A stretch of DNA of 57,544 nucleotides, taken from an uncultured Eubacteriales bacterium. GTDB taxonomy: Bacteria; Bacillota; Clostridia; Lachnospirales; Lachnospiraceae. Of this stretch, positions 2,399 through 47,496 are shown one piece after another. The stretch spans positions 1 through 57,544 of the forward strand of contig CADCOW010000100.1 of NCBI GenBank assembly GCA_902803205.1. Reading direction: 5' to 3'. Below the pieces are notes generated by a model. That model saw nothing but the letters and a program-made list of their open reading frames with translations, did no database searches and was not told the DNA's origin. The position numbers and the translations under genes are program-made. How positions within the stretch are numbered: the stretch's first letter is position 1; each line of letters starts with the position of its first letter.

Positions 2399-2459
2399 AA
2401 AAATAGTCTAATGTATACAGTTTGTAAAAAGCTGATATTTTATGCAATGATTTTATTAT

Positions 2460-2649: not shown

Positions 2650-2763
2650 ATGTTTATAGAGATTTGCATAAAAAAACTTGTTTTTGACCTATTTTTGGCA
2701 AAATCCATTTATTTATATAGAAATGTTTGTAAAATTAAGGAAAATGGCTGTAAAACAGGGCTA

Positions 2764-2792
2764 AAAAAGTATTAAAATAGTATTAAGATTTT
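2764..2792 (+). promoter_or_regulatory. Candidate operator: direct repeats AGTATTAA-N3-AGTATTAA upstream of the giant gene 1 promoter
   Basis: A 29-nt block, AAAAAGTATTAAAATAGTATTAAGATTTT, is identical at 25337-25365. Both copies start 48 nt upstream of the -35 start. Confidence 0.45.
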
Positions 2793-2811
2793 AAAAAATT
2801 GTGTATTTTTA

Positions 2812-2840
2812 TTGAAAATTAAGGCTCAATTATGTATAAT
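2812..2840 (+). promoter_or_regulatory. Sigma-70/SigA-type promoter of giant gene 1
   Basis: TTGAAA (2812-2817), 17 nt spacer, TATAAT (2835-2840). The same architecture precedes gene 2. Confidence 0.6.
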
Positions 2841-2992
2841 ATTGAAAATGGGTTTTTGTGCCTATTTGTATCTTTTTGCGTGAAAACGCTTAAAGTTTTA
2901 ATTGCTTATAGTAAATATTTTAGTTGAAAAAATTTATTTTTCAAAAAAGTATTTATGATTTGATTAAAAAAATTTTTAGAAGAGGTTTGGTT

Positions 2993-5900
2993 ATGTTTAG
3001 TCAAAAAGTAAAAAGAGTCATTAGTATCTTACTTGTGATATCTATGACTTTGTGTTGCAATGGATTCTCAGTCCTTGCAGGAAGTGTTGAAGGAGTTGTA
3101 GAAGAACAACAAGTTGCTACAAGTGAAAAACAAACTCCTAATTATTATTATGAGTACCAAGAGTACAAAGAAGAACAAATTGTGCTTATGGGAAATGCAG
3201 GAGATAGTAAAGATAGTGGAAAAGAAAAAGCTGAAGGAGAGAATGCAGAGCCTGGAAATGTAGAGAGCAACAATAAAGATGGTGATGCATTAGCAATCAC
3301 TGATGGTGAGTCAGATAATGATTCATCAAGTTTTGATGCTGAAAATGGTGAAGAGCCAGAAAATAAAAAAGAAAATGAAGAAGAACCAGAAGATGATGAG
3401 ACTACTACTGTAAAAGAGGAAGAAGAAACTTCTGAATCAGTTGAAGAGAGTGAATCAACTACTGAGACTTCTGAATCAGTTGAAGAGAGCGAATCTACTA
3501 CTGAGACTTCTGAATCAGTAGAAGAGAGTGAAACTACTACTGAAACTTCTGAATCAGTTGAAGAGAGCGAATCAACTACTGAAACGTCTGAATCAAAAGA
3601 AGAAAGTGAGTCAACTACTGAGACTTCTAAAAAAATTGATGAGACTGAAAGTGAAAAAGTAGAAGAAACAGAAAAAACTTCTGAGAGTGTTTCTGATGAA
3701 ACAGAAAGTAAGAAAGTAGAAGAAAGTGAATCAACTACAAAAACGTCAAAAGAAGATATAGAAACAAGTGAAACAACAAAAGAAGAAACAACTACAGTAG
3801 TAGCAAAAGAAGAAGAAACTACTACTATAGAAGAAACAACAAAAGATGATGGCAAAGAAGAGAATGAAAGTAAGACAACTGAGAAGTCTGAAGAATCAAA
3901 TACTAACGAAACAACAAAAGCCTCTGTTCAAGATATAGATGATGTAAAAAATAAAACTAATATAGAATTTGTAGAAGCAAGTGAGTCATATACTGAAACT
4001 TCTGTTAAAGTTATAAAGAAATATATTTATGCTACAAGATCAATCCCAGAAGATAGCATATGGACACTTAAGGAGATTTTGGCAAATGAAACTACAGGTT
4101 CATTTAAAAATCTTCCAAGAAACGAAGAAATTGTAGATAAATATCTTGCAAAAAATATAAAAGTTCTTGTTGAGAACCAATATGGTGACCAAAAAGTATT
4201 AACTGTTCCTGCTAAATGGGACATAGAAGTATTATCAAAAGTATATCGTCCAGAAGGATTTATTCCAAATGCTAATGATTATAAAGTAAGTGCTGATGGA
4301 AAACTTTATGAGATTGGTGAAGATGGAAAAGAGAAAGAGATAAAAGAAGAAGTAGAGACTAAAGAAGTTATTATAGAAGAAAATAACATAGATGATGAAA
4401 ATGCTGATATAAAAGTAAATGATGCAAAAGAAAATAAAGATGAAGATAAAAAAGAAGACGATACAAATATAGAAGTTACTACTGAAGAGAATAAAGAAGA
4501 AAATAAAGAAGATGAAAGTGTAGAGCCAACTGAAAAACAAGAAATAAATGAAAGTATAGAGCCAACTGTGGCTGGATTTACTGGAACTGATGATGAGAAG
4601 ACTGAAACAAATAATACAGATAATAATGAAGTAAGCAAAAAGACTGAGGAAAAGACTATTGAAACTACAGTTGATGAACATGATGCAAGTGTAGGCGAAG
4701 AGAATGTAGTATATGAGTATGAGACAGTAAGTGCTGATGAGCCTATAGTACCAAGTGAAGATGAACTTAAAAAAGATAATGTCATAGTAGGTAATGCAAA
4801 TAATAAGATAGTAAATGAGAAGAATGCTAAAGAAGAAGCTGTCGCTGAACTTAATCTTGCATCACTTGCAAAGAGTCTTGCAGAACTTCTTGGTGGAGAG
4901 ATTATCATTTCTCATGAAACAGGATTTAGTGACACTTTATTTGGTGCAACTGACCATGAACACTGGGTATGTGGCAGACAAGTATGTAGTGATACTCAAA
5001 GAAACCACTTCAATGAAAATATGAATACAAATCACCCAGTTACTGGTGTAAAATCATTCCAAGCTGTAAATAATTTTGATCAGTTTGAATCAGCTATAAA
5101 TAATACTGCTACATCTGATTATGATTATATAGTACTTACAGCAAATATAACTGTAAATAAGATGCTTAAATTAACTAAGCCACTTTTCCTTTGCTTAAAT
5201 GATTATACTTTAAGTTTTACAGAAGATGGACAATTATGTACATTCTATGATTATCAACAAGACCCACCTATAGATGTGCAACACGGTGCACTTACAAATG
5301 CTATATGTATATGTGGATGTAATGATAATAATGGTACTGCAGATGGAATATGTGGAACTATAGAAGGCACAGAAGCAAGATATGCTCCTGCTATATTCTA
5401 TACAAAGAATGCAGGTGTATATTTGTTTGGTTTAGGTAAGTCAAATGGTGCAGGAAGAGATGTTGCACTTCCTTATGGTGAGACAGGTACAGCAGCAGAC
5501 AATGAAGTTCGTATAAAAGTAAAAAATTTCACTCTTGCTGATGCAATAACTTCATATAGACCACACCCAGGTCAAAAAGAAGCACCAAGCGATACACAAG
5601 TTTATTCATATACCAATAACTACCTATATAATAAGAATAGTAACACTATACAAGCAGTGTCAGGAGTAGAAGAACCTATGTATAATGACTATTCTTCTTC
5701 ATTTATAGCTATGTCTATAAATGATAAAGGACAAGCAGAATCACAGACTTCAAGACAGGCTTTCTTCTATGCTCTTGATATAGAAAATATAAAATCAAAT
5801 GATGGTGGATTTGCAAATCTCTATTACCTCAATTCATTTGCCATGGAACATTGTAAGATAATAAATGTTGGAGCATTTAGAGGCGGCATAGTATCAGTTG

Positions 5901-8900
5901 ACTTCAATAATAGAAAGTTCTTAAATACTACAGATACTTCTGTAAATAATGACTATATAGATATAGGTCACAATAATATACAAAACTGTGGATTAAGTAA
6001 AGATTTCACTGGTTCTGGTGCAAACTCAAAATGGGGTGATGAAGGTAAATATAACAATGGTACAAATGTAACAGTAGAAACAGGTCATACTCTTATGGAC
6101 CCAGAAGAAGTATATTCACCAGATAAAAATGGATTGTTCTTACTTGAAAATTATAATGGTGGTTCTACTGATGAAAACTATCGTATCATAACATCAAATA
6201 ATTTTACAAGTAATGATTTAAGCCCAGCAAGTGTAACTACTGGAAATGTTGATGATGCAGTTCAACAATATTTGATTTATTTGACATTTGATTCAGTAGG
6301 TACAAATACTATAAATGTAAATGACAATACATTTACAAATAATAAAGCTGGTGTATTATATATAGAAAACTTATATAATGAAAGACATGGCATACCTGCT
6401 ACTGATGGTAGCCAAGGTATAGTTTATCTTGATAAAAATATTATAGATAACAATGTTATGGGTTCATCTGCACTTGGTACAGATGATAGACCAAAAACAC
6501 TTGGAGTAATGAACTTCCAAAATCTTTCAACAGTTCTTTTAAATACTAAAGTTACAACTACAACACAACAAACAGTAACTAACAATAAAGGTATAGGAAC
6601 TGGTGCAGTTAGAGTTTCTAATGCAAATATATTCTATGTATATAAAACAAAATTTGAAAACAACACTGCTTCAAATGATGGTACAGGTGTAAACACCGCA
6701 AGAGGTGGTGCAATATTTGTAAGTACTTGCTCAACTGTAAAGATAGGTAATGATGTTGTAAATCAGGCTGAAAAAGTTGAATTTATAACTAATGGTACTG
6801 ATTATATATTAAATGGTGGCGCTGTGTATGCAAATGATATAACATCACTTAATATATCTGATGTAAAATTTGATAGCAATGTATCAGATGGAAATGGTGG
6901 TGCTGTATATGCTGAAGGTGTAGGAAGAAACACAAGTACAAATATATATGGTTCAAAATTTGATTCTAATAGTGCATCTAACAATGGTGGAGCATTATAT
7001 TATAAAGGTGATGATGAAAAAATATATAAACATAATTTATATACTTCATATTTCTTAAATTTAACTAATGATACAATCAATAAATTTGATAAGAATAAAA
7101 CAGCATCTGGCGATGGTGGTGCTATATATCTTGCTAATTTAACAGATACATCTAATATGAAATATGTAGATGTTACATCTGATGGTGCGACTGCAAGAGG
7201 ACAATTAAATGAATTGGCAATTTATAATTCTACAGGAAAAGTAAATATAGCTAATTCTACAATTTACAATAATCAAAATGATTCATCTGTTGAAAGAAAA
7301 AATTACTCTACAATATATGTAAATGATGCTGAACTTGAACTTGATAGTGGTGTTCATATAAAACAAAATGTAAATGCAATTAGACTTGGTAAAGCTACAC
7401 TCAGTATGGCATCATATAGACATGTAACTCATAATGATATAGATGATTCCGATAATATATTGATAGAAGAAAATACTGGTGATTATATAATTGGTGTAGA
7501 AAATGATGAATCAAGTTATATAAATTTAAAACAAGGTAAGATAGATAATAATACATTGCTTGGAACAACAAGAAATGGATATGTTCTTGTGACAGCAGGT
7601 GATATAGCTTATGATGCTGCATTTGGTTATATAGGTAAAGTAGCAGATGAAGCTTCTATGAAGCAATCTACTATCCAACTTGGTGGAAATATAAGATTAA
7701 ACAACAATAAGAGAGATGGTGATGTACTTGCAAATATGCCAGTTGAGATAGTACCTGATGGTGTAGGTAACTATAGTAGACCACTTTATAGACACTTTAA
7801 TGCAGTAATTGTGCCTATCGCAACATCTGCATTTGCAGAAGCAGGTACGGCAGAAAAAACTGATGACTTACTCACATTAAATAGCGGTGTTATTGACACA
7901 AGACTTGGTAGAGATGCAAGAATAAGTCTTACTGCTATAAATGCTATAGAAGTTGATTATCCAACAGAAGATTCTGGTCATACAACTAGAGCAAAAAGAG
8001 CAGAGCTATTTAAATTTGATGATGATGAAGATACAGATTATATAAAATTTGATAATAGACATATACAAGGATATGATGGTGGCTCAGGTGGTGCTGGTGC
8101 ACAATCAATATTTACACTTGAAAGAAAAGGTCAAATGATACCTGGAATTACTATCGGTGGTACTACAGGAGATGTGTATGAGAACCGTGTTGTATATGCA
8201 AATAGAGGTGCAGGAGATAGAATATCATTATCAGACTCTGCTACACTTATTACATTTAAATTTAGAATGGTATTCCAGACAGATAGAGATAATCCAGATG
8301 ATTATGGATATGGCACATATGTAGATGCTATACCAGACCAAATGGTTGAAGAAGGAACTCCTGTAATGCAACCTATAAAAGACTATTCACTTGCAGAAGA
8401 GAGTAGTGCAATATATACTGATGCTGTAGCTGGAGTTAAAGAATATAAAGTTATAGATATTATAGGAAATAGTGAAGGAACAGTTGAAAGTAATCCAAGT
8501 AAGAGATTCCATAGTTGGGATTGGTCACAACATGTAACTAGGCCAGACGGAGCAGGTTCATCTTGGGCACCAGAACTTACTGCAATTTATGCAAATGTAA
8601 ATCATAAACATAAAGTTTGTGGTATAGAGTGGGGAGTAGAGTGTAGCCACCTTGGTGATACAAGAACAAATTATCATAAAGAATTTGGTGGAGACTGCTT
8701 TAAGAGAGATAATACAATAGATAAAACTTGTATAGATGTACGTATACCTGAGCAACTTATGTATGCAAAAGAGCATCCAGAGTATATGTATGTTTTAGGT
8801 GCAGATATAATAATTAAAGATAGTATAAATGGTGTAAACATAGAAAGAGTATTAAATGACCCAGACAACCCAATACCTAATCTTAAACTTTGCTTAAATG

Positions 8901-25066: not shown

Positions 25067-25095
25067 ATAGTAAAAGTAGGCTTATAGCCTATATG

Positions 25096-25121
25096 AGGGG
25101 CGGACAAACCGCCCCTTTTTA
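25096..25121 (+). terminator. Rho-independent terminator of giant gene 1
   Basis: GGGGCGG (25097-25103), loop ACAAA, CCGCCCC (25109-25115), then TTTTT. Confidence 0.8.
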
Positions 25122-25128
25122 ATTGTCT

Positions 25129-25289
25129 GTAGTGGCGGATATCATCCGACCATTTGATGCTAACACTGTAGTGGCGGATATCATCCGCCCACAAATAATA
25201 AAAAATTGGAAGATAATATCTTCCCCTACAAAAGTCCGTAGGGGCGGATATCATCCGCCCACACCCGTATGGGCGAACTATGTGAACCC
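25129..25289. repeat. Cluster of five family-A REP-like elements (GTAG + GC hairpin)
   Basis: 25129-25151 (+), 25168-25190 (+), 25208-25229 (- strand; variant GTAGGGGAAGATATTATCTTCC), 25238-25260 (+), 25267-25289 (+, decayed GTAT form). Confidence 0.85.
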
Positions 25290-25336
25290 AATGTTATGTG
25301 GATTTCAATAGCCCAAAATAGCCATTTTTTAGCATT

Positions 25337-25365
25337 AAAAAGTATTAAAATAGTATTAAGATTTT
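25337..25365 (+). promoter_or_regulatory. Candidate operator of giant gene 2 (AGCATTAA / AGTATTAA / AGTATTAA direct repeats)
   Basis: The 29-nt block is identical to 2764-2792 and sits at the same 48-nt offset to the -35. A third, weaker repeat is at 25331-25338. Confidence 0.45.
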
Positions 25366-25384
25366 TAAAAAAACTTAAAAAAGG

Positions 25385-25413
25385 TTGAAATTATAAGGCT
25401 TTTTATGTATAAT
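25385..25413 (+). promoter_or_regulatory. Sigma-70/SigA-type promoter of giant gene 2
   Basis: TTGAAA (25385-25390), 17 nt spacer, TATAAT (25408-25413). Confidence 0.6.
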
Positions 25414-25530
25414 ATTAAAAATGGGTCTCTTAGCTCATTTGTATATTTTTGCGTGAATACGCAATGTGTTTTAATTGCAAGAATAAAATTTTTGTGATTA
25501 AAAAAATAAAAATTTTTAAGAGGTTTGGTT

Positions 25531-43500: not shown

Positions 43501-46500
43501 ATATCTATACCAACAGATTTATATCCAGCATCAACTTCAGAAGTTGTAGTCATAACAAATGAAACTCCTTACTGGAATACAGTTCAAAGTGCTACAGCTT
43601 ATGCAACTTGGAGAACAAAAGAAATAGCAGTTACATTTAATATAACTCTTGATAAAGAATCAGATTCTCAAAGTCCAATTACTTGGTCAAGAGATGTAGG
43701 ACAAACTTCAGGTAATAATCGTATCGGAAGATATATGTATACATCAAGAGTAGCTTCAACAAGCATACCAAAACCTGAGAGACCTGGATATAAGTTCATA
43801 GGTTGGAAGACTGCAGATAATGCTACAAAGATTTACTCAGCTGATACAGACTGGGAAAATATGGATATATATGAAAATACTACATTGTATGCTTATTGGA
43901 GAGGAGACACTTATACAGTAACATTTGACCTTTGGGGCGGATTTAATGGTGTTGGAGGCTCAACTCCTATGTTATCAAGCACTATAGTAGGAAAAGATGA
44001 AGATGGAAATGCTGGACAAACTTATTCTGCTGGAGTAGCATATGATATAGTAACAACTTCAATAGCTTATAAGTCATTATTCAGTACAGCATTTAACAAC
44101 ACTACAGACTTATTCAAACCAGTAAGAACAGGATATGACTTCGTTGGATGGTTTGCTCATAGAAGTGATAGATTCTGGAATCAAGGTTGGGATGCTTCAG
44201 GATATCATGGATATCGCAATAAACAAGGTGCAGATAATGAGCCACTTACAAAGAATGTAATGTTTGAAAGTTCAAATCTTGGATATACTACAGCATTACC
44301 ACAAAATGTAACTCTCTATGCATTATGGGTACCAAAGAATGTCAAGATAAGATATAAATATAACTGGGGCACTGATAATCAAAATAAAGCATTTAGAGGA
44401 ACAACTGAAGTAGCTAATACATATGTAGATTCAGAATTAGTATTTGGCGATAGATTTGGACAAGCAAGAGCAGCTGGAAGTATAAATAATGCTTCTGACA
44501 AGATGATTCCATCTGTGCAAGTACCAGGAAAGATATTTGCAAGCAATGCAAATGACCCTACAAAACAACATGCTTATCCAGCATCAGTAAGAACAGACAA
44601 TACTACAAGAAGAGAAGGATATACATTCAGAGGATATAATACTGCTGAAGACTTTAGTGGTGATTATATTACAAATGATACAGTATTTGACTATGCTGAT
44701 ACTACTAAGGAAGTATGGGCACACTTCACTCCAAATGATTACACAATTACATTTGTACCAAATACAAGTACAAATAATGCTGGTGGAAATGTAGGTGGAA
44801 GACAATACTATGATATAGAAAATGCAACATTTAAATTTAATGGTGCAGTTGTAGACTTAAATACTTGGACATCAGATGTTACATTTGGAACAAATACTTG
44901 GAGACTTCCTGTACCAGATCCAATACCTGGATATACATTCAAAGGTTGGTATACAAAGAATGCTGCAAATGCAGGTCTTATGAATAAGACTCAGACAGAA
45001 TGGGGAAGATATGTAGGTGGAGATTCTACAAATACTGCAGCAGCACCAAAATATGACTTGAACCTTGATGTAATAAGCGAAGGTTATGAATGGGTAAATG
45101 GTGCAGAGAACACAGCAGCCGCGAAAGAACAACTTAAGAAAGTTGCAAGAGATATAAAACTCTATGCAAGATGGGAAAGAAATAAATATAGAATTGATTG
45201 GAGAACAAATAGATATAATGGACTTTCTGAAGATGAGATAAATGGTTCTTCAATACCAAAACAAGTTGAGTCAAGAATTTCTACAGATGTATACTATGGT
45301 TTACCACTCAATATTGATAAAGATGGAAATGCAAGAACAGCTATGCCTACTACTTCAAGAGATGGTTATACATTTAAAGGTTGGAGTATAGAAGGCGGAC
45401 TTAGAACATCACCAATATTTGATTATGCAGGTGGTGAACAATTTAAACCAGTTGCAATGTATACATCAGGTGCTACAATACCTATGTATGCTATCTGGGA
45501 ACCAAAACTTTACACAGTAAAACTTAACTTCAATGCAAATGATACTAACTATAAGAGACCAAATATAGATAGTGCATATAATAATGCAGGAGATCATATA
45601 AATGATGTTGAGACTATGATAAGAAGTGACAATCCATCATCAGCATCTGGTTACGTAAATAGATTTACATTCAAAGTACCATTTGACGGACTAATTACTG
45701 ATTCAGCAAGCATACCAACAGGAACTAATGTTCACTTATATACTAACTATAATGCAGCAAGCACAAGTCATATAGAAGGATTTACATTTGATAAGTGGAC
45801 ATATGGAACTGCTAAGACAAGTGAAGAGTATGATTCAACACATAGATTAAATGCTTCATTTATAAGCACTTATGCAAGTGGCGATACAGTCAATATGTAC
45901 TCACAATGGACTCCAAAGACTTATACACTTAACATTGCTGGCTGGGCACATTCTGGTGAGACATATAGTTACAACGAAGTAGTTGAGATCTCATCACAAG
46001 ATATTACAGCAGAAGCTGGTATGATATTAATAGGTCTTGATTATAACCAAGGTGGCTTAGAACCACACTTCAATTTAGTAAATGATATTTCTAAGTTTAC
46101 AAGACTTACAGATGATGGAAGTATAACACTTGTACCAAGATTCAAATCACAAGAATTTGCTATTACATATAGAAATAGTAATGATAGAACAGTGATGACT
46201 GTTGATTCTACAAAGTATCCAGTATGGTATGATGTAGAAGGAAATAGTAACTTACCAGCATCAAGTTACCCTATAACAGAGATTCCTGAAAAACAAGGTT
46301 GGGAATTCCTTTGGTGGCAATATGATTGGGCAGAAGGCACTACAGGCACAGCTTCAGAGATAGTACTTCCACCAGTTGGTACTACAGGTGAGAAGGAAAT
46401 CACAGCAGTATGGACACCTGGAACAATAGAAGTTGTATTCCATAAGAATGATGGTTCTGGAGTAACTGCTATAGATGCTATAGGACTTGATAGAAAACTT

Positions 46501-47448
46501 AAGATTAATACTTATAACTGGACAAATGATGGTAATTCTAATTTAGTTATATCTTATTGGAACACAAGTCCAACAGGAAATGGTACTACTTATCAAATAA
46601 ATGGTACTATAGTATTACCAGAAAATGATTATTCAATAACAAGACTTGATTTATATGCTATTTGGGTAACTAATCCAAATGGTGGAGGCTCAGGTAGAAG
46701 TGGTAGAGGTGGTAATTCAGTAAATGGCGGCGGCTATAGTGGTGGCGGCGGCGGTGGCGGAGGCGGTGGAGGAGGCGGTGGTGCCGGTCTCGCAGCTGGC
46801 TCTGCAGCTTTTGGTGGAACTACACCACTCGGCGGCAATATCGGTGTAATTGCAGATGATAATGAAACTATTGCAAAGGCAGTTTACTCAAACAACAATG
46901 CAGCACAAGGTAGCTGGTTCTATAACCCAGTATCAAATGGTTGGTCATTTGCACTTACAGGTAACTTTGGTAATACTACAAATAATAACAAAGTTGCAGC
47001 AAATGGTTACTTCTTAGTTTCAAATTCTGTAGGTAACAAAGCTTGGTATAAGTTTGATGCATACGGAACTATGATGACTGGATGGCAAGTAGAAGCAAAT
47101 GCAGTATATTACTTAAATAACAATCCTAATAGTAAAGACTATGGAGCTATGATGAAGGGTTGGGTAACAGTAGATGGTCTTGATTACTACTTCGATAGTG
47201 CTGGTAAACTCTTAGTCAATGGTGTAACACCAGACGGATTTATAGTAAATGAGAATGGTGCAAAAGTAGGACTTGCTAATAACACTATGGGAGCACTCGC
47301 AGGAACACTCGACTTAAGCACAGCACAAGGACTTGTAAATGCAGCTCCACTCACAGTTACAACTACATTCGCAACATACATAGCATACTTAAATGCATTA
47401 AAACTTCAACAAATGACACAAATAGTTCCAACAACAACAGTACAATAA
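25531..47448 (+). CDS. Giant secreted cell-wall-associated surface protein / fibrillar adhesin, 7305 aa, paralog of 2993-25066
   Basis: One uninterrupted ORF. The AAGAGGTTTGGTTATGTTT RBS/start block is identical to gene 1. Signal peptide MFGEKMKKAISIALIFGMVLSGNGFTILASS. The domain order is the same as gene 1. Confidence 0.9.
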   Translation: MFGEKMKKAISIALIFGMVLSGNGFTILASSVDDAVLKSEQESENKGQKNYYQMMYQEQYYEQTTVVSNNLFGTENTEAENKENNIDSTTAFENDGSESGDENKPTLQGSNQNQITDGENYGIEKPEDAFNSEEENEENKANEEEPEVDETTTTVKEKEEETTVDETLVISSNENENQTTTNNNIDETTIVSEETTKNENEESTTAPVETTKEGEGEKETKSEEESTTVEESTTETSKIDESTTETSKVEEITTETSKVEESATETSKVEESTTETSKEETSATNESSVESSETTQETTTEEVTTTEETTTKVKDTEDEEATNSETKKNITESENATKSDADETENNNVDEATASNVSEKKEATLSEIDLITDLKSTESEIKFEKVEKATVSIATVSVASESETTATESVIRVVKYIVATRAQIATTSIWKVKKFLINDDLTGSFMGSDPTEEEMNEKYLPKKVRVLIADQLGNERVVTIDAKWDRIRVNLQSGAKVESVPTATKAFIPVNLSNRGLKVDVNKGTFAADTIDVAKEDADRKFNEQVQKGINEFYAESMSEELEKSGETIDETIETDEDGNIINTTIDDENNNQNEENNEQTSTTEKVENGDETTIKETTKEETTTEETTTEETTKEETTTNIAPTEATTEKGNTEEPTVAGFNLSENDAEPEADSGEVDDDGNKIVGSQASNNVANTSEATNDETTVSNNETTISVSTSSVIESGNDSAVVEPYKIETVYEKTTIEKVAESDLVEDPGLLGNVATQIVNPNTANFAVGGELNMDSALSDLANILGNDSVVIIPQLEPIQLKTFGSGNNKLGLTPNGGGGGGGLFGTPGPGSHEGHGSNINYHAAGQQYVTDLSHYTVVDKTWTNAYVVEKESDIRDYANDSSRNNCLLILGASFTINDDVDFKKKNFYLCANGNTLTFGFEEDTKNNTVKVGRILHCRDIIVTNCKTTGGMSGLNTTSTDVSTHVPYDRKASVSYVNESGTVAYKKVSATAIQGGENNADVVSVTNVKVEDIFSNVHDKIQFTGYNDDAAAFIRSTASYVFMGNVKATGLVGAQGGLMKVGDAELLHVRGCEFKDNKAFKGACFNVRFKKDTDAIVNGSANGTNRGVFIYDNTFENNAYAFFDRDDENPYTFGRYTFAKTHYYKVDGTGLLKERITTGFNNTDDGTGAGYTRANDSKPKTSGTYETYQYQNLGYEKTTYNYDKTEANGLVLVDNVGIGYYNDTAISIEGNSIKNNMPYDLCGAFHVSLSNSLSSSVPGRAGKDAINIDVFRNTIENNCQYKSSKNDGDVAAGLTISMNPDGYADHRTVRYEEAYKMSSNSEAESYQKAIYENGEYGVAGRLDFYSNLVYDNYNMSPNPAGISIRNIKEVHINNKKDPGIISGHTEGATRTLDARTNAAKHNYTSGGGAAFEFMRNGKTRVYNMLFEENEAVTKGGAVYINGEQDIEFVNEGTKENPTVTFKNNIARTFGGAVYASDSNMIKFTKVDFTNNYLLSGSRWVTTMGLADYYTNWFYGYQQGSIRKTLPKEMVDKSKTLFDKIVESSVDMPFASSTYLGQYYYVKDEDATYICTQSDATYKWSQLDDAWTYYEETRKSAARGFVEPYLFADTGKGVYVKRGSTETIDDMFAGSAALDGTNVIDKQKIGTYDLTTGAIGGKVVNMGKGGAIALVSSLDTKLIFDNCDIKDNISSFTGGAIYANTEKGLISISGNEASRSEVSGNLAGRSGGFMMIENTRASFSYVNVERNHAEQGGAIFTFTDPDKHYREEDSELYIYKTDIVENGFLTDADKTPHEDYVEPKENYNFSYFGDTSTGREAVADKGEIKTDGHNYTDINNEAKHTIHNATDKSDWVKIMKTGNADAGDSGTAFNSGGAIYTYASQVKFDTGAYVAKNENTLYSIAGSTILTRQTTNHDLNTKEEEITFEQNRGQYVFGHFSTFKARFQFYGGKIVNNELDEKAVSDAKYDYIDSVERKMGGKTVKIYTAYALSDFKKAEERSIVLGGNIMIKDNKEGTKVKNLALEEGEQDRNYKFELSKDQTLHKNAEIYLTPQSPNGMRYQLFGNSKDTWEEELVDRADRTARGEAWSNNGLWTDEWVASRSEGAVVQNIFKNDFADDPMDGRVIYTARNVANNSSGKAPDEAGYVQGDTPDFGQIYLEDPNNLISMKFELYDLDENGNHRYSSQLETQYFSRGSRVQSPLSDSRETMKFSTDSSIRLIDLVGYLGSENSKRFAVWDYSYQITKGDTPIRVVDENKLVRIAGEDDTYNVQTLYAINAMTNHRHKICGTPIGVPCNHPDGSTHDSEQYYYGDDGIDNLQEVSRKDYDEPDYVEGGHLSIEVSTLSQLMYARKHPEYMYVLTNDLIIEKSWWNREINGIINDTSKPLKNLKLCLNGHNIFINDNRQLATFFGDNCYICNCQEKEVNIHYNYDTSTSHNYYPNTTGAGYVFNIVNSGTNNTNLNIYGNDNGHIVIDGLYMYNTNNSLMNLSNNDKLSMANVDFKNIGRNGTFGNPSLLSTTLLDLPGDAYISTVSFTNVHQTLLSTNPGSTDHKMGQGIIRLYDYNEENKNLTYAKTQILKNVTFENVSVDKQYSAIIVSNLKNDGSQFDVENVSIATASIKGRAAIALSQADGYYKGNVTIKNSTFSNVNAPVDKVTTGYTGGAIYVGGLLGKLTIENNYFYSCGVKDDSISYVKALNGGAIYIGDTDILSSAPGYKGQSVDPIDIINNTFINNNGGNGGALYMKNVPDTNLLNNIFEENIANMGSAVYHENTNKACRQGSVDASNNTFTNNGTIDTANKVTTKGTYYIRLPKQEGKPATTYTFTNFKAVGNEGATSVLYADYLDKDNVVLFKGDTLMTDNIGGPVVSIYNSLGGTNAGYIRFTENTKIASNSTGTLWAIYSNKDCVINVQFAGVVTVSENKTNGNTEANIYASQRIRTGVVPGMKLDGLNSLLYYSTDTDQAIIEWATSSIAGFDTPGLYLEDHIKPDNEYPTSQFVIYKTNEPGSEYTVYIGKRTDAVVIRGYLTSTISTAKKMLAKRNARDVYMDNFATPTEALAELRLTQPQYNNYEFGGWIIKNSVGEFETLNYGKTKINVDDEITLDAYWITKTHDHKSCGCDKGTPCVHGTPDDETWIGAFRESVLGINNSANYLILEDMELTKTITDPKKGYTICLNGHTITRNINSTAMTSLVNITGTAPYETGFNLINCKNKTATVRFTGSGKSSYPLIKVVNNDYASTSIIMKNFEINSIKTQQSEEGCIVNASGVDLTWENITLDKSEVINKALLNMTNSKTNIIGNETNMDRTSFDFPGGYYLGSEGLLVFNGGEVEFNYVKLSNTRVPQREGLINLKNLKSFKVNNSRFENNENNVSYSAVFNVQDVKYASISNTSMINNYTGRSGGVFYIANLTTASTINIVDSDLYGNRATEDGSSIYYRNEEAGNKLIINIVDTRIANNTARGVQNGGGAISLFTKTGIVETEMTELNIKVTDANKAPINDTTARVRQFRENKSGANGGFIYAKDAIITIESTDTSLTSSDKALEFVSNDAGNGANGGTFYLERSILNLKAATGFVNAIDNKTVLNGKGSFIYSAGTDKVGNESSHKDGVYLKNVTVERGTALSVNDSLHGLVAIGPYSDLKLDGVVKIGEDTTGTTVPVHNGLYEFTNGADDLTINVTKASRSLADTFDYGVVGTPTSKIYATTEYKDFYVIGHYTDHDRAGGMKVNQVFFKDSGYDSEYLVSRAGAMNNRIVIISNTSGIVRFDIGSNATIKYKDNGGLDITRDQMLENTQTIPFDTGATLDDIFYTGATAPDKAGYDFKGWVTTIWDEVNSEYKIANFDFTNSLAYLPSPQTELNVYAVWAPNGENKIEVEHFEQLYFIDNTSISPNEYNYKLSSSLLDGKLIASRSDIEAMAPFNKGGNYRMILDLNGKTLEIQQDITSFNDDSYRARFEIKNGTIKYNSAKAKEHPMFTGSLLKLEGVNIEEFNMKGSVFADIKGDGTNANQGLHLKAYSNLGLVKPTNIERNVNITFRTNADGLEIGENTHFSYNSAKDGVTDYSLKDYPLIYLTAPKNGTYKSKIEGSSFDFNTYIYSYIMTEMSMAEVDYTLDITNSEFRTSLLTGEKFIKGYPGAAEDLNAIIKTVHKSSASTIGKYRISNVDFITGDMNVFNSIIDAYDTSLEIENMHFDNLKAVQNIIAQDAPTKAATLIATSSTFNNNKLNNHRGSVVIMRRKANTVVDRFTDVEIKDNSSTYAMAAYAVNSSVFTYPAYSFNGEIIVKNNKHENILNNRGTGDIVIPQFTSGEQVLAFNTVGNKPITTTSEISLYRQTVVDGDLVADKTWTPQVHDHTTERIFTMKDSNGVSDYVVYRDGISLRVAKTSSTLYKTITFNLNNGTDTITNEDIVVNTQYIAEGTYVDEPVEPINAAGYAFGGWYIVDTNTPNKYIRYDFTNTTSDDYRMWSATRSELYAMWTNKQIYLTVYSNDNGHPKSDASVIFAHTNPYKAYFKVPMGGKLSDAVEIRKYVPTAYDPTTLAPTEGAWDSWDATSEFTRGGLTDAGWFDKNGWNDGANDGADGWGNEWNRVESMFLIDNDKHSETLADGNLFVKWRGALIDINYNLNDASEGSGSTLATYSSVGVATQSYYNDTVGSAEYKLPVPTRVGYEFNGWYSDATLTNKVENETIFTWTTAPVFYAKWTAIKYTISYVTEPGDDTTGKTNENKDDEFKFDEAKNLARNGYKMVGHNFKWWVATDSETGIVATYSDMQNVINLATISDTNIKLAARWQAQETKMKFILNDTKGSNTATMSESLASKSVTYGKEIGELPVPERKGYRFAGWYKTVNSANNDNDVDLINADMIFNESLKSGSAFVPVKSGNVQEVSVYARWENNIYSIKTESGVAADDKYPVNSGEDYEYDLAFDFADSNIGKEYTRLKPKFETKASKKYQRDGYKYLGLYATYSDTVIFADNRTENVEFTKGKPLYNLGLKDIASGSNIVFVASWSELTYNLIVKSGHEILGEGVTFTNVSDYPATVSEFKNLKYTEEFVLSSKATPYEIEGYKFNGFTTKGYEFDFDSVLSGATFSDVIKNNENVTITLEGHWIRNPYTVVYKNARTEEEAAKVSGNLADQIFSVGEPQELRSISKLVYPGHTFEYWYDEGYVEGSVGNKATYSDIERVQDIRTDRDAVATLSAVWRDNEYSLIFNDNAPAGTTVRGTKEAIRDIKYTTEFDIGTPGFIVDGYRATKFTNHEKLAKSNPKYIITPSTTEEVNMVKELVDVDGTELELYLQWEPNEYKVKLDLNDGNSETKADPYISSISLAYNKQFKSQPEYMNIVRGAAGAPTRPGYKFSGWTKTPKLPTEEATELDKTEIFRPTELDISTYSMTIYAYWQAQPYTITVDANTIDEVDGHTKSVKGAKTATVKKVPYDQKINDPSIPRELPMSYLGGYEFTHYATASEWSEGMIKIDGDTIFNFEAGPTTIYAQYKPIKFKIHYSTNSDVNVEGNMPDQNITYADGTEFREIIESSESTTFKKKGYTFVNWTYTNPETLYNTKGKTIVRKPYTFDNKASASQIRESTGSVAIMIPNWKEHEYTITFSPATESLAASGHHDYTGRVNPMTLKYSQNANLPDRGYNITGYDLVAWVDANDSSKRYDLGAPISKLAGEEYGVKGENKEIKLNAVWQAKEFDITFIRNDASQNNGSTIASLSVAGVDMGQAAYTIKATYDSAFPDSVVYKTVHDLTKDIIATRSGYDFIGWSTEQNVAYIERVNKTVKADAVFKSTSTLRLYAMWKPKEVTARLYVQTRNFGVTPKWTTGARVGQDVDDTNPIEHTLYYDQPYNRSETQGLVTTALELPSTVGFDFVRYFAPREASESNPTAEWSSIGRESDVDRTKFVDIDTEGAARLDTFDSLYEENGKYYINLYGFWEVGAVKLYLVSTYSNADGSSPYRNSRDVTYGARVGYLSDGTLNPLPGYNNTTGPRRPGYDFVNWISIPTDLYPASTSEVVVITNETPYWNTVQSATAYATWRTKEIAVTFNITLDKESDSQSPITWSRDVGQTSGNNRIGRYMYTSRVASTSIPKPERPGYKFIGWKTADNATKIYSADTDWENMDIYENTTLYAYWRGDTYTVTFDLWGGFNGVGGSTPMLSSTIVGKDEDGNAGQTYSAGVAYDIVTTSIAYKSLFSTAFNNTTDLFKPVRTGYDFVGWFAHRSDRFWNQGWDASGYHGYRNKQGADNEPLTKNVMFESSNLGYTTALPQNVTLYALWVPKNVKIRYKYNWGTDNQNKAFRGTTEVANTYVDSELVFGDRFGQARAAGSINNASDKMIPSVQVPGKIFASNANDPTKQHAYPASVRTDNTTRREGYTFRGYNTAEDFSGDYITNDTVFDYADTTKEVWAHFTPNDYTITFVPNTSTNNAGGNVGGRQYYDIENATFKFNGAVVDLNTWTSDVTFGTNTWRLPVPDPIPGYTFKGWYTKNAANAGLMNKTQTEWGRYVGGDSTNTAAAPKYDLNLDVISEGYEWVNGAENTAAAKEQLKKVARDIKLYARWERNKYRIDWRTNRYNGLSEDEINGSSIPKQVESRISTDVYYGLPLNIDKDGNARTAMPTTSRDGYTFKGWSIEGGLRTSPIFDYAGGEQFKPVAMYTSGATIPMYAIWEPKLYTVKLNFNANDTNYKRPNIDSAYNNAGDHINDVETMIRSDNPSSASGYVNRFTFKVPFDGLITDSASIPTGTNVHLYTNYNAASTSHIEGFTFDKWTYGTAKTSEEYDSTHRLNASFISTYASGDTVNMYSQWTPKTYTLNIAGWAHSGETYSYNEVVEISSQDITAEAGMILIGLDYNQGGLEPHFNLVNDISKFTRLTDDGSITLVPRFKSQEFAITYRNSNDRTVMTVDSTKYPVWYDVEGNSNLPASSYPITEIPEKQGWEFLWWQYDWAEGTTGTASEIVLPPVGTTGEKEITAVWTPGTIEVVFHKNDGSGVTAIDAIGLDRKLKINTYNWTNDGNSNLVISYWNTSPTGNGTTYQINGTIVLPENDYSITRLDLYAIWVTNPNGGGSGRSGRGGNSVNGGGYSGGGGGGGGGGGGGGAGLAAGSAAFGGTTPLGGNIGVIADDNETIAKAVYSNNNAAQGSWFYNPVSNGWSFALTGNFGNTTNNNKVAANGYFLVSNSVGNKAWYKFDAYGTMMTGWQVEANAVYYLNNNPNSKDYGAMMKGWVTVDGLDYYFDSAGKLLVNGVTPDGFIVNENGAKVGLANNTMGALAGTLDLSTAQGLVNAAPLTVTTTFATYIAYLNALKLQQMTQIVPTTTVQ
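26221..26370 (+). repeat. 30-bp in-frame tandem repeat x5 (ESTTETSKVE)
   Basis: Five consecutive 30-nt units starting at 26221. Confidence 0.85.
28048..38690 (+). other. Four beta-helix cassettes of giant protein 2
   Basis: Cassette heads at about 28048 (SHEGHG..LCANGN), 32386 (NHRHKICGTPIGVPCNH..LCLNGH), 34867 (THDHKSCGCDKGTPCVH..ICLNGH) and 37150 (..ILDLNGK). PMP-type GGA[IV]Y/F..N motifs are seen, for example, at 29770-30000, 30540-30830 and 33500-33850. Confidence 0.6.
38692..46670 (+). repeat. Array of about 25 Listeria-Bacteroides (Flg_new) domains in giant protein 2
   Basis: Same unit signature as gene 1. Isolated extra copies lie at about 34600-34865 and about 36820-37125. Confidence 0.75.
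46681..46785 (+). repeat. Gly-rich hinge with an uninterrupted GGN tract (46741-46782)
   Basis: GGGSGRSGRGGNSVNGGGYSGGGGGGGGGGGGGG. Confidence 0.9.
46909..47270 (+). other. Cell-wall-binding (CW_binding_1-type) repeats, C-terminal anchor of giant protein 2
   Basis: KAWYKFDAYGTMMTGWQVEANAVYYLN...GAMMKGWVTVDGLDYYFDSAGKLLVNG. Confidence 0.7.
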
Positions 47449-47461: not shown

Positions 47462-47496
47462 AAAAGTGGGAGATTTTCTCCCACTTTTTATTTTTT
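47462..47496 (+). terminator. Rho-independent terminator of giant gene 2
   Basis: AAAAGTGGGAG / CTCCCACTTTT stem, loop ATTTT, followed by a T-rich tail. Confidence 0.8.

What the first reader, a model, noticed from the sequence alone, without database searches (positions are those of the whole stretch)
2993..47448. Tandem pair of >7300-aa paralogous surface proteins filling about three quarters of the window
Two back-to-back single-ORF genes of 22.07 and 21.92 kb (7357 and 7305 aa; roughly 0.8 MDa each at about 110 Da per residue). Each has its own promoter and terminator, and both share one architecture:
- signal peptide, acidic repeats, and a short V..LP..V.VL......V.V.A.WD segment (Big_4-like by eye, weak call);
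- beta-helix cassettes with chlamydial PMP-type repeats;
- about 25 Flg_new repeats, a poly-Gly hinge and 3-4 CW_binding_1 repeats.

The paralogs are collinear repeat by repeat. Matching pairs include NWKEHEYEIEF / NWKEHEYTITF, KLAGEGYGPDG..AVWKAKKYKVNF / KLAGEEYGVKG..AVWQAKEFDITF, and HWRPKRYKIDYEN..VPTWYD / RFKSQEFAITYRN..YPVWYD. This points to duplication of an already giant gene, followed by divergence without homogenisation of the arrays.

The layout suggests a wall-anchored C-terminus, a long Flg_new stalk and a distal beta-helix tip. Proteins this large are rare. Non-covalent anchoring of about 0.8 MDa through only a few choline-binding-type repeats is notable.
Basis: partly seen in the sequence, partly recalled or inferred. 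Interest (0 to 1): 0.8.

Follow-up and report, generated by a model that had tools for sequence, protein, structure and literature searches.

The report
Tandem giant wall-tethered surface adhesin genes
Two neighbouring 22-kb genes of an uncultured rumen Lachnospiraceae bacterium each encode a secreted protein of about 0.8 MDa that is probably tethered to the cell wall; the pair is real and conserved in related species, but it is a very large example of a familiar kind of bacterial adhesin, not a new kind of system.

Summary
Gene A (2993-25066, 7357 aa, 817 kDa) and gene B (25531-47448, 7305 aa, 808 kDa) are intact, same-strand ORFs. Each has its own promoter-like site and terminator.

The two proteins are collinear but only about 25% identical. 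HMMs support most of the shared layout:
- a Sec-type signal peptide and acidic Ser/Thr/Glu-rich repeats;
- four beta-helix cassettes, with Chlam_PMP above threshold in A and just below in B;
- about 24-25 Flg_new-type domains, a poly-Gly linker and 3-4 choline-binding-type wall repeats.

The Big_4 call is not supported.

The same A-like then B-like pair occurs in other uncultured assemblies: goat rumen Lachnospiraceae MAG RGIG3219 (goat1 43% identical to A, goat2 49% to B), a second Lachnospiraceae MAG and a 63-kb metagenome contig. The duplication is therefore ancient, and the ORFs are not assembly artefacts.

The cassette family is rare (14 representatives among 1.84 billion proteins) and unannotated. 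No enzyme or toxin domain was found.

Best reading: paired, non-covalently wall-tethered fibrillar adhesins. This is a new member of a known kind, comparable to Apilactobacillus Giant1-5.

Side findings: a promoter and two-hairpin 5' leader conserved across paralogs and species, and a REP/RAYT system.

The parts
2764..2992 (+). Promoter and 5' leader of gene A. It holds an exact 29-nt upstream element (2764-2792), a -35 TTGAAA and extended -10 TGTATAAT (2812-2840), a two-hairpin leader (2842-2904) and the ribosome-binding site.
   Evidence: The region is about 79% identical to the region upstream of B.
2993..25066 (+). Gene A: 7357 aa, 817 kDa, pI 4.6.
2993..3082 (+). A signal peptide, MFSQKVKRVISILLVISMTLCCNGFSVLA|GS: a basic n-region, a hydrophobic core and an AxA-like cleavage site.
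   Evidence: Read directly from the sequence. It is conserved in the orthologs. No signal-peptide predictor was available.
3170..4912 (+). A N-terminal region. Two acidic low-complexity stretches (aa 60-330 with 35% D+E and 32% S+T; aa 440-640) flank a small conserved domain (aa ~330-420, ...KYLAKNIKVLVENQYGDQKVLTVPAKWD).
   Evidence: A301 matches B399-485 at 47% identity. The small domain gets no Pfam hit, Big_4 included.
4910..8212 (+). A cassette 1 (aa ~640-1740). It starts with a His/Cys cap (HEHWVCG at 655, CLNDY at 734), followed by a beta-helix carrying Chlam_PMP repeats (GGAVYA-type turns at 1238-1375).
8210..11152 (+). A cassette 2 (aa 1740-2720). The cap is NHKHKVCG...C.H (1871), LKLCLNGH (1967) and CYICDCQ; a beta-helix follows. 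This is the part best conserved between A and B.
   Evidence: AlphaFold core pLDDT is 70-88. Foldseek returns only beta-helix proteins. phmmer of A cassette 2 against B cassette 2 gives 1e-28.
11150..16084 (+). A cassettes 3 and 4 (aa ~2720-4364). Cassette 3 carries ICLNGH at 2902; the cap of cassette 4 is degenerate. No Pfam family matches this stretch.
16085..24352 (+). A stalk: about 24-25 Flg_new / List_Bact_rpt-type domains of about 100-120 aa (aa 4365-7120).
24380..24427 (+). A poly-Gly linker (aa 7130-7145). It is encoded by mixed GGN codons.
24530..25063 (+). A wall-binding module: a W.YD..KW.Y motif plus 3-4 choline-binding-type repeats (aa 7180-7284), then an Ala/Gln/Leu-rich tail. 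There is no LPXTG motif.
25095..25117 (+). Intrinsic-terminator-like hairpin after gene A.
25337..25530 (+). Promoter and 5' leader of gene B. It holds the same 29-nt element (25337-25365), the promoter-like site (25385-25413), the two-hairpin leader (25415-25477) and the ribosome-binding site.
25531..47448 (+). Gene B: 7305 aa, 808 kDa, pI 4.8.
25531..27930 (+). B signal peptide (aa 1-30), acidic Ser/Thr/Glu-rich regions (aa 40-400 and 560-800; a 30-nt array at 26214-26370) and the small conserved domain (aa ~405-495).
28048..38688 (+). B cassettes 1-4 (aa ~840-4386). Caps lie at 2287/2397 and 3115/3177. One Flg_new-type domain is intercalated at aa 3772-3865. Aa 1400-2400 is the part most conserved with the goat MAG ortholog (67-74% identity).
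38689..46710 (+). B stalk: about 24 Flg_new-type domains (aa 4387-7060).
46741..47445 (+). B poly-Gly linker (aa 7071-7086), 3-4 choline-binding-type repeats (aa 7127-7246) and a C-terminal tail.
47462..47488 (+). Terminator-like hairpin after gene B (12 base pairs plus a T-run).

Best explanation
A and B are ancient tandem paralogs. Each encodes a Sec-exported, non-covalently wall-tethered fibrillar adhesin of an uncultured rumen Lachnospiraceae bacterium.

Proposed working, with the status of each step:
1. Both genes are driven by near-identical promoters and 5' leaders, so they are probably co-regulated (sequence conservation shown; co-regulation inferred).
2. A standard signal peptide sends each protein through Sec (inferred from the sequence).
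3. The C-terminal module of 3-4 choline-binding-type repeats holds the protein on a wall polymer (domain identity shown; ligand and anchoring inferred).
4. A poly-Gly linker gives a flexible joint (sequence shown; flexibility inferred).
5. About 24-25 Flg_new-type beta domains form a long stalk (domains shown; rod shape inferred).
6. The N-terminal ~4000 residues form four right-handed beta-helix cassettes. Each starts with a His/Cys-rich cap (HxHxxCG...CxH...CLNGH...CxICxCQ) and some carry PMP-type turns. They present large binding surfaces far from the cell, capped by acidic Ser/Thr/Glu-rich bristles (fold class shown for one cassette; binding inferred).

The likely targets are plant-fibre polysaccharides or other cells in the rumen. 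Both paralogs have been kept through speciation while diverging to about 25% identity, which suggests different ligands (inferred).
For: The ORFs are intact and have the stated sizes.

Domain calls:
- Flg_new is above threshold in both proteins. Chlam_PMP/TIGR01376 is above threshold in A. PF19127 is above threshold in both C-termini.
- The C-termini resemble the toxin A CROP repeats (E 5.7e-13).
- The AlphaFold model of A1740-2720 has an all-beta core with pLDDT 70-88. All its Foldseek neighbours are right-handed beta-helices, including the adhesins pertactin, Ag43 and Fap2.
- No enzyme or toxin Pfam family appears, even at E <= 1. There is no LPXTG motif.

Composition. Cys is low (0.3-0.4%) and Thr/Asn/Gly/Asp/Glu are high. 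A published account describes similar signatures for giant surface proteins (PMC10756260).

Conservation:
- Goat rumen MAG RGIG3219 carries goat1 (7030 aa, 43% identical to A over the full length) followed by goat2 (at least 6012 aa, 49% identical to B).
- The CAMIYN MAG and contig JAEEGL010822579.1 also carry an A-like then B-like pair.

Anchor. A neighbouring surface protein in the goat MAG ends in the same C-terminal module. Choline-binding-repeat proteins lie just downstream in the window. Rumen Butyrivibrio is reported to hold large cell-associated proteins on the wall through C-terminal PF01473 repeats (PMC2914790).

Precedent. Apilactobacillus kunkeei Giant1-5 have the same overall layout: a tandem array of 3000-8000-aa proteins with an N-terminal beta-solenoid, a long repeat stalk and a non-covalent C-terminal wall-binding domain (PMC12863079).
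Against: - There is no expression, localisation or binding data. The organism is known only from metagenomes.
- Foldseek E-values are weak (>= 0.07), so only the fold class is established, and only for one cassette. The second model failed, with mean pLDDT 32.
- Chlam_PMP in B is below threshold.
- Three or four wall-binding repeats is a small anchor for 0.8 MDa. Repeats of this type can also bind external glycans, as toxin CROPs and glucan-binding proteins do, so the topology could be reversed.
- Beta-helices are also the fold of many polysaccharide lyases and hydrolases.
Confidence: 0.62

Rival explanations
1. The proteins are cell-surface, multi-catalytic polysaccharide-degrading enzymes. 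Each beta-helix cassette would be a divergent lyase or hydrolase of the pectate-lyase fold, displayed on a stalk to attack plant fibre.
For: - The top Foldseek neighbours include PL6 alginate lyases, GH28 polygalacturonases, a fucoidan lyase and phage tailspike depolymerases.
- Rumen Butyrivibrio anchors its core pectin, xylan and starch enzymes through C-terminal PF01473 repeats (PMC2914790).
- A 6869-aa beta-helix protein of Epulopiscium was interpreted as a surface glycosyl hydrolase (PMC10756260).
Against: - No PL, GH, CE, Beta_helix or NosD Pfam model matches any 560-aa piece, even at E <= 1. NCBIfam finds none either.
- Foldseek E-values are >= 0.07 at 7-12% identity, so no catalytic family is identified.
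- PMP-type GGA(I/V)Y turns are typical of adhesin passengers.
- The sequence search of the PDB with A1-4400 is empty.
Confidence: 0.13
2. The proteins are released rather than anchored. The C-terminal repeats would bind glycans on a target (plant, microbe or host), as toxin CROPs and streptococcal glucan-binding repeats do. The protein would then act as a bridging or aggregation factor, or as a matrix component.
For: - The C-terminus matches the C. difficile toxin A CROPs and weakly matches the glucan_65_rpt model.
- Only 3-4 repeats are present, there is no LPXTG and there is no transmembrane segment.
- The A. kunkeei Giants are found both in cell lysate and in supernatant (PMC12863079).
Against: - Several other surface proteins of these genomes end in the same module, which fits a generic wall anchor.
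- No toxin or effector domain is present.
Confidence: 0.12
3. The proteins are a structural coat or spacer: a brush-like outer layer that protects against phage, protozoal grazing or enzymes, with no specific ligand binding.
For: - The proteins are very long, acidic (pI 4.6-4.8) and carry low-complexity bristles.
- Divergence between orthologs is fast (43-49% identity), as expected for exposed antigens.
Against: - Specific blocks are strongly conserved: B1400-2400 is 67-74% identical to its goat ortholog, and the cap of cassette 2 is the best conserved part between paralogs. This points to constrained functional surfaces rather than a bulk coat.
- No SLH or S-layer domains are present.
Confidence: 0.1
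4. The ORFs are an assembly artefact or pseudogenes, for example collapsed or chimeric repeats that create spurious giant ORFs.
For: The window comes from metagenome data, and no long-read support is available. The copy numbers of the 39-nt and 30-nt arrays and of the Gly tract could be mis-estimated.
Against: - There are no stops across 7300 codons at 32% GC.
- Apart from the short acidic arrays, neither gene contains long near-identical DNA repeats.
- Independent assemblies from other animals carry collinear orthologs of nearly the same length: 7030 aa, with gaps of at most 18% per 200-aa window.
Confidence: 0.03

Closest known systems
Apilactobacillus kunkeei Giant1-5 extracellular proteins (PMC12863079)
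   Same: - Consecutive genes in a Firmicute encode 3000-8000-aa secreted proteins.
- Each has an N-terminal beta-solenoid head, a long repeat stalk and a C-terminal non-covalent wall-binding domain.
- There is no LPXTG and no dedicated secretion system nearby.
- The paralogs have diverged.
   Different: - The Giant1-3 stalks are alpha-helical repeats; here the stalk is Flg_new beta domains.
- The Giant anchor is SH3b-like; here it is choline-binding-type repeats.
- Here there are four beta-helix cassettes with a His/Cys cap, not one solenoid.
PMP-repeat beta-helix adhesins (chlamydial Pmps; Fusobacterium Fap2; Ag43 and pertactin-type passengers)
   Same: - GGA(I/L/V) turns match PF02415/TIGR01376 in A.
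- The fold class is right-handed beta-helix. Fap2, Ag43 and pertactin are among the Foldseek neighbours.
   Different: - There is no autotransporter beta-barrel, and the host is Gram-positive.
- PMP repeats cover only a small part of the cassettes, and B is below threshold.
- Several cassettes sit in one chain.
Flg_new / Listeria-Bacteroides repeat (InlB B-repeat) surface proteins
   Same: The repeat family PF09479/TIGR02543 is above threshold in both proteins, with the GYxFxGW core motif.
   Different: Here there are about 24-25 very divergent copies (25-38% identical to one another) used as a stalk of about 2700 aa. There is no LRR internalin domain.
PF01473-anchored cell-associated proteins of rumen Butyrivibrio (PMC2914790), and pneumococcal choline-binding proteins
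   Same: [quoted passage not shown]
   Different: - The Butyrivibrio proteins are recognisable CAZymes of ordinary size; no CAZyme domain is found here.
- Only 3-4 repeats are present.
- Choline dependence is unknown. No lic genes are seen in the window, and the nearby nucleotidyltransferase is RfbF-like.
Giant surface proteins of Ca. Epulopiscium viviparus, a Lachnospiraceae (PMC10756260)
   Same: Same bacterial family. The largest is a secreted protein of about 6900 aa with parallel beta-helix repeats. A Cys-poor, Thr/Asp/Glu-rich composition is described there for the other large secreted proteins.
   Different: That protein has a transmembrane domain and Fn3 domains and was read as a glycosyl hydrolase. 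No tandem paralog pair is described. Homology was not tested.
C. difficile toxin A/B CROP region
   Same: This is the best PDB sequence match for the C-terminus (7u1z, E 5.7e-13).
   Different: Only the short repeats are shared. No glucosyltransferase, protease or translocation domain is present.

Membership tests
Flg_new / List_Bact_rpt repeat proteins (PF09479, TIGR02543) | The HMM match is above the curated threshold. | tested here: met
   PF09479 scores 93.1 bits in A and 85.0 and 68.6 bits in B, against a threshold of 27. TIGR02543 scores 70.4 bits against 20.95.
Flg_new / List_Bact_rpt repeat proteins (PF09479, TIGR02543) | There are tandem copies with the GYxFxGW core. | tested here: met
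   Each protein has 14 clear motifs. An HMM built from this window's repeats finds 15 in A and 19 in B, and the spacing fits about 24-25 per protein.
Chlamydial-type PMP repeat (PF02415 / TIGR01376) | The repeat HMM is above threshold. | tested here: met
   This verdict is for A only: 46.6 bits against a threshold of 20.6, and TIGR01376 at 34.5 bits against 15. B is inconclusive at 19.3 bits, although it has 9-10 GGA[IVL][YFA] turns.
Chlamydial Pmp / type V autotransporter adhesins | There is a C-terminal autotransporter beta-barrel in an outer membrane. | tested here: not met
   No autotransporter family appears in any Pfam scan. The C-terminus is choline-binding-type repeats, and the host is a Gram-positive-type Lachnospiraceae. 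The proteins share a repeat with Pmps but are not members of that family.
Right-handed parallel beta-helix fold | The predicted structure matches solved beta-helix proteins. | tested here: inconclusive
   Model of A1740-2720: core pLDDT 70-88 and all-beta. All of the top 50 Foldseek hits except one (an atadenovirus capsid entry, 6qi5) are beta-helix proteins, but E >= 0.07 and TM-score <= 0.38. The model of B1380-2280 failed.
Choline-binding / cell-wall-binding repeat proteins (PF01473 clan) | The repeat HMM is above threshold at the C-terminus. | tested here: met
   PF19127 scores 43.6 bits in A and 38.0 bits in B, against a threshold of 27. PF01473 itself scores 8.3 bits in A and 20.0 bits in B, against 20.5.
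Choline-binding / cell-wall-binding repeat proteins (PF01473 clan) | The ligand is choline on teichoic acid, with a lic locus in the host. | not testable with these tools
   The window has no lic genes. The nearby NTP-transferase is a glucose-1-phosphate cytidylyltransferase (TIGR02623, 368 bits). The rest of the genome was not available.
Sortase-anchored (LPXTG) fibrillar adhesins / MSCRAMMs | There is a C-terminal LPXTG motif, a hydrophobic segment and a basic tail. | tested here: not met
   No LPxT[GAN] occurs anywhere in A or B. Both C-termini end in an Ala/Gln/Leu/Thr-rich tail.
Serine-rich repeat proteins (SRRPs) | There are long Ser-rich repeats, an extended KxYKxGKxW-type signal peptide and an adjacent SecA2/SecY2 locus with glycosyltransferases. 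| tested here: not met
   The signal peptide is about 30 aa and of standard type. The acidic S/T/E regions span only about 300-600 aa. The flanking genes encode no accessory Sec components.
Big_4 (PF07532) bacterial Ig-like domain | The HMM matches the V..LP..V.VL...V.V.A.WD segment. | tested here: not met
   There is no Big_4 hit for A320-430 or B405-500 at E <= 10, and none for the 560-aa pieces at E <= 1.
Polysaccharide lyases and glycoside hydrolases of the beta-helix fold (PL1/3/6/9, GH28) | There is an HMM match to a catalytic family. | tested here: not met
   No such family appears at E <= 1 in any piece of A1-5060 or B1-5060. The PDB sequence search with A1-4400 is empty.
Apilactobacillus Giant1-5 | There is sequence or structure homology of the head and stalk. 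| not tested
   Only the published description was read. The resemblance is in architecture.

The most novel reading that the evidence does not exclude
Two elements would together form a new kind of module.

1. The His/Cys-rich cap that opens each beta-helix cassette (NHxHKxCG...CxH...LCLNGH...CxICxCQ). It is the best conserved protein element between the paralogs. It could be a metal-dependent functional site, in catalysis or ligand binding, that defines an undescribed domain family.
2. The promoter plus two-hairpin 5' leader shared by both paralogs in three genomes. It could be a dedicated cis-regulatory or RNA-stabilising element that makes full-length expression of 22-kb genes possible.

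The evidence does not exclude either reading. The cassette family has only 14 strong representatives in 1.84 billion proteins and no Pfam or PDB relative. The leader has no Rfam match.
Probability: 0.12. Interest if true: 0.6.

Novelty: new member of a known kind. Interest (0 to 1): 0.35.

Why it matters
About 44 kb of one genome is spent on two proteins, and the pair has been kept through speciation. The cell therefore pays a large cost for them, and they are probably central to how this uncultured rumen Lachnospiraceae lineage attaches to plant fibre or to partner cells.

The find also gives:
- a defined, rare and unannotated beta-helix cassette family with a distinctive His/Cys cap, suitable for structural work;
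- a conserved promoter and leader that could be used to study how Firmicutes transcribe and stabilise 22-kb mRNAs;
- another natural example, alongside the Apilactobacillus Giants, of tandem giant adhesins that diverge rather than homogenise.

It does not change current concepts of bacterial surface proteins.

Tried and rejected
- Protein searches that failed. A 3800-aa query timed out.
- Word-indexed homolog searches found almost nothing. Cassette 2 of A gave 3 hits, the cap alone gave none and B1380-2280 gave 2 hits. The exhaustive HMMER search was the informative one.
- The second AlphaFold job, on the most conserved block of B (aa 1380-2280), gave a mean pLDDT of 32. It was discarded.
- The Big_4 call was tested three ways and rejected.
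- The idea that the neighbouring nucleotidyltransferase is LicC, which would have supported choline decoration, was rejected. It is a glucose-1-phosphate cytidylyltransferase.
- Invertible-promoter (phase-variation) idea. The inverted repeats flanking both promoters are short (13-15 nt), AT-rich and imperfect, and I saw no such arms by eye in the goat and sheep upstream alignment. I took them as chance.
- Gene conversion between A and B. Outside the promoter and leader the two genes share only short low-complexity or motif-level DNA matches.
- No Rfam family matches anywhere in the window, and there is no tRNA.
- No homolog was found on PLSDB plasmids, which include the Butyrivibrio megaplasmids.
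- The covariance model of the leader found only its own five training sequences in 185 kb. It gives no independent support.
- The scFv hits in the PDB search are artefacts of the Gly linker.
- The minus-strand ORFs inside the genes (3148-3855, 4306-4908, 11983-12456 and 25890-26951) lie, except 11983-12456, opposite the GAA-rich acidic repeats. I took all four as non-genes.


Full report

Yes. The ORF listing finds two same-strand ORFs at 2924-25066 and 25525-47448. The likely starts are the ATGs at 2993 and 25531. Each lies behind the same sequence, AAGAGGTTTGGTTATG. Masses are 817 and 808 kDa, and pI 4.6 and 4.8.

The window is 32% G+C. About 7-8% of random codons would then be stops, so 7300 stop-free codons cannot be chance.

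Each gene has its own regulatory sites:
- a promoter-like site with 11 of 12 consensus matches (2812-2840 and 25385-25413);
- a terminator-like hairpin (25095-25117 and 47462-47488).

**2. How are A and B related?**

They are collinear but distant. BLASTP aligns A1-742 with B1-928, A1230-2021 with B1665-2456, and A4041-7345 with B4172-7295, at 24-27% identity. When 200-aa chunks are searched separately, the best cross-hits stay on the diagonal.

The best conserved stretch is A1800-2020 against B2220-2455 (36-44% identity). Cassette-by-cassette phmmer gives A cassette 1 against B cassette 1 at 2e-5, cassette 2 at 1e-28, cassette 3 at 0.004, and cassette 4 not significant.

At the DNA level the genes share only short low-complexity or motif-sized matches. 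Internal tandem repeats are confined to a 39-nt x 5.7 array, a 30-nt x 5.2 array and the Gly tracts. There is thus no sign of homogenisation. There is also little substrate for assembly collapse.

**3. Architecture**

Pfam and NCBIfam results:
- Chlam_PMP/TIGR01376 is above threshold in A (46.6 and 34.5 bits). In B it is marginal (19.3 bits against a threshold of 20.6), although B has 9-10 GGA[IVL][YFA] turns.
- Flg_new/TIGR02543 is well above threshold in both.
- Choline_bind_3 (PF19127) is above threshold at both C-termini (43.6 and 38.0 bits). PF01473 itself is sub-threshold.
- Nothing else matches. In particular there is no Big_4, no catalytic family and no toxin domain, even at E <= 1 on 560-aa pieces.

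Reading the sequence gives this order of parts:
1. A signal peptide of about 30 aa.
2. Acidic Ser/Thr/Glu-rich low-complexity regions (up to 35% D+E and 32% S+T). They flank a small conserved domain of about 90 aa with no family match.
3. Four cassettes of about 500-1300 aa.
4. About 2700 aa of ~100-aa Flg_new-type domains.
5. A poly-Gly run.
6. A W.YD..KW.Y motif plus 3-4 twenty-residue wall-binding repeats.
7. A short Ala/Gln/Leu-rich tail.

There is no LPXTG motif.

Most cassettes open with a His/Cys-rich motif: NHxHKxCG...CxH, then (L/I)CLNGH, then CxIC(D/N)CQ. It occurs at A655/734, A1871/1967, A2902, B2287/2397 and B3115/3177.

For the Flg_new stalk, an HMM built from this window's own repeats finds 15 copies in A and 19 in B. 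One of the B copies lies between cassettes 3 and 4. The gaps between hits fit roughly 9 and 6 more copies, so 'about 25' is fair.

**4. Fold of a cassette**

An AlphaFold2 model of A1740-2720 was built from a five-sequence alignment. Its mean pLDDT is 56, but the core (residues 173-740) reaches 70-88 and is all-beta.

All but one of the 50 best Foldseek matches against the PDB are right-handed parallel beta-helix proteins; the exception is an atadenovirus capsid entry (6qi5). They include PL6 alginate lyases, phage tailspikes, GH28 enzymes, pertactin, Ag43 and Fap2. However, E >= 0.07 and identity is 7-12%. The fold class is therefore supported, but no family or activity is.

A sequence search of the PDB with A1-4400 is empty. 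The C-terminal part hits the C. difficile toxin A CROP repeats (7u1z, 5.7e-13) and a cell-wall-binding repeat protein (4nby). The scFv hits in that search come from the Gly linker.

A second model, of B1380-2280, failed with mean pLDDT 32.

**5. Distribution and evolution**

An exact copy of the flanking MnmA protein occurs only on ENA metagenome contigs.

An exhaustive HMMER search with the cassette-2 profile against 1.84 billion representative proteins finds 14 proteins at E < 1e-30 and 18 at E < 1e-10. Several are long fragments (3240, 4263 and 6486 aa) with the same layout. The other ~170 hits cover only the generic PMP-like turns.

The genome collection (GTDB species representatives) holds relatives only in uncultured Lachnospiraceae MAGs. 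Two of them, from goat reticulum and sheep omasum, are rumen-derived.

- Goat MAG RGIG3219. A 7030-aa ORF (goat1) is 43% identical to A over its full length. It is followed directly by an ORF of at least 6012 aa (goat2) that is 49% identical to B.
- The CAMIYN MAG has two ORFs of about 6900 aa and at least 6230 aa. The second is closer to B.
- The 63-kb metagenome contig JAEEGL010822579.1 has an A-like cassette 2 (72% identity) and a B-like one 23.4 kb downstream.

The duplication therefore predates these lineages, and the gene order A-like then B-like has been kept. Four independent assemblies agree on the gene size, which argues strongly against an artefact.

Conservation along the orthologs is uneven. 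B1400-2400 is 67-74% identical to goat2, against 40-55% elsewhere. This suggests that the distal cassette 1 and the junction into cassette 2 form the most constrained surface of B.

**6. Best explanation**

The proteins are paired, Sec-exported, non-covalently wall-tethered fibrillar adhesins.

- Shown: the domain identities, the fold class of one cassette, the absence of LPXTG and of enzyme domains, and the conservation of the pair.
- Inferred: anchoring through the C-terminal repeats, a rod-like Flg_new stalk, beta-helix heads that bind ligand away from the cell, and different ligands for A and B.

Support for the anchor comes from three directions:
- the same C-terminal module ends a neighbouring surface protein in the goat MAG;
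- choline-binding-repeat proteins are encoded just downstream in the window;
- rumen Butyrivibrio is reported to hold large cell-associated proteins on the wall through C-terminal PF01473 repeats (PMC2914790).

Choline itself is not established. The nearby nucleotidyltransferase is RfbF-like, not LicC.

Rivals, in order of my estimate:
- surface-displayed beta-helix polysaccharide enzymes;
- released bridging proteins whose C-terminal repeats bind foreign glycans;
- a protective brush layer;
- an assembly artefact.

**7. Comparison with known systems**

The closest analogue in layout is the tandem Giant1-5 cluster of Apilactobacillus kunkeei. Those proteins are 3000-8000 aa, with an N-terminal beta-solenoid, a long repeat stalk and a C-terminal SH3b-like non-covalent anchor. 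They have no dedicated secretion system (PMC12863079).

Ca. Epulopiscium, also a Lachnospiraceae, encodes a 6869-aa secreted protein with beta-helix repeats (PMC10756260).

By the yardstick of a recent survey, 'large' begins at 10,000 aa, and giant proteins reach 85,804 aa (bioRxiv 10.1101/2023.11.21.568195).

The present proteins are not members of three families they resemble:
- the chlamydial Pmp/autotransporter family, because there is no beta-barrel;
- the LPXTG adhesins;
- the SRRPs.

They share repeat types with the first and a general design with the others.

**8. Verdict**

The pair is a real and well-conserved pair of giant surface-protein genes.

It is a new member of a known kind. 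The cassette family is rare and unannotated, but the building principles are familiar. Interest is moderate (0.35).

The points most worth following up are the His/Cys cap of the cassettes and the conserved promoter and leader, described in the side observations.

Noticed in passing
window 2764-2992 and 25337-25530; L004 4870-4933; L007 4048-4110; L005 2091-2152: The promoter and 5' leader of A and B are about 79% identical in DNA, although the proteins are only about 25% identical. The shared parts are an exact 29-nt element AAAAAGTATTAAAATAGTATTAAGATTTT upstream of the -35, an extended -10 TGTATAAT, and a leader with two hairpins. Hairpin 1 is AAAUGGGU...ACCCAUUU at the predicted 5' end. Hairpin 2 is UUGCGUGAAAACGCAA followed by a U-rich run.

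The same leader precedes both orthologs in the goat MAG and the sheep ortholog. Hairpin 1 keeps its pairing through GC-to-GU changes, but there are no double compensatory changes. There is no Rfam match. The covariance model found no further copies in 185 kb.

It could be an mRNA 5' stabiliser, or an antitermination or operator element for 22-kb transcripts. This is speculative.
   Followed up: partly
window 25134-25259, 47543-47559, 48507-48523, 53023-53089, 57260-57439; gene 47653-48447: This looks like a REP/RAYT system. Palindromic elements GTAG(G/T)GGCGGATATCATCCGCCC carry the GTAG head typical of REPs. The pattern search gave 19 matches on both strands, about 12 distinct sites in intergenic regions, against 0.01 expected by chance. 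They include a 7-copy array at the right end of the window. The DNA hairpin folds with z = -4.2.

The gene directly after B encodes a Y1 (IS200-like) transposase with an added HTH. It scores 77.8 bits on NCBIfam REP_Tyr_transpos (cutoff 80), and oppositely oriented REPs flank it. The CAMIYN MAG has a different element with the same GTAGGGGCG head upstream of its B-like gene.
   Followed up: partly
L004 1-3843 (goat MAG, gene upstream of goat1); window 51009-51887 and 55228-57165: The C-terminal wall-binding module (W.YD..KW.Y plus choline-binding-type repeats) is shared with other surface proteins of these genomes. Examples are a protein of at least 1281 aa upstream of goat1 and two choline-binding-repeat proteins downstream in the window. 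This fits a generic anchor used by many secreted proteins.
   Followed up: partly
window 48573-51002: A 539-aa multi-pass membrane protein matches no family. It lies next to a glucose-1-phosphate cytidylyltransferase (TIGR02623, 368 bits). The two may be part of a wall or surface polysaccharide pathway. The transferase is not a LicC choline-activating enzyme.
   Followed up: partly
window 298-2265: The upstream gene encodes a 655-aa protein with a DUF6273 domain (66.5 bits) and no obvious signal peptide at the called start. A 45-nt tandem repeat overlaps its start (213-305), so the true start may lie further upstream.
   Followed up: no
window 2296-2700: The long spacer between the DUF6273 gene and promoter A contains a terminator-like hairpin (2296-2317), a 40-nt x 2.2 tandem repeat (2309-2395) and a 55-nt inverted repeat (2458-2512 against 2597-2651, 73% complementary). 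Their nature is unknown.
   Followed up: no
L004 4653-4739; L005 1904-1990: In the goat and sheep MAGs a tRNA-Leu(taa) gene lies directly upstream of the A-type gene's promoter. The window has no tRNA gene there and has a different upstream neighbour. The left border of the locus is therefore not syntenic.
   Followed up: partly
window 36844-37125 (B aa 3772-3865) and comparable linkers such as A aa ~2700-2830: Flg_new-type domains are not confined to the stalk. One sits between beta-helix cassettes 3 and 4 of B (domain E 5e-14). The linkers ahead of other caps look like degenerate copies by eye. Each cassette may therefore be a unit of one Flg_new-like domain, a cap and a beta-helix.
   Followed up: partly
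window 3148-3855, 4306-4908, 25890-26951 (minus strand): Minus-strand ORFs of 200-353 aa lie opposite the GAA-rich acidic repeat regions of A and B. I took them as by-products of the low-complexity sequence, not genes. I did not test them further.
   Followed up: no
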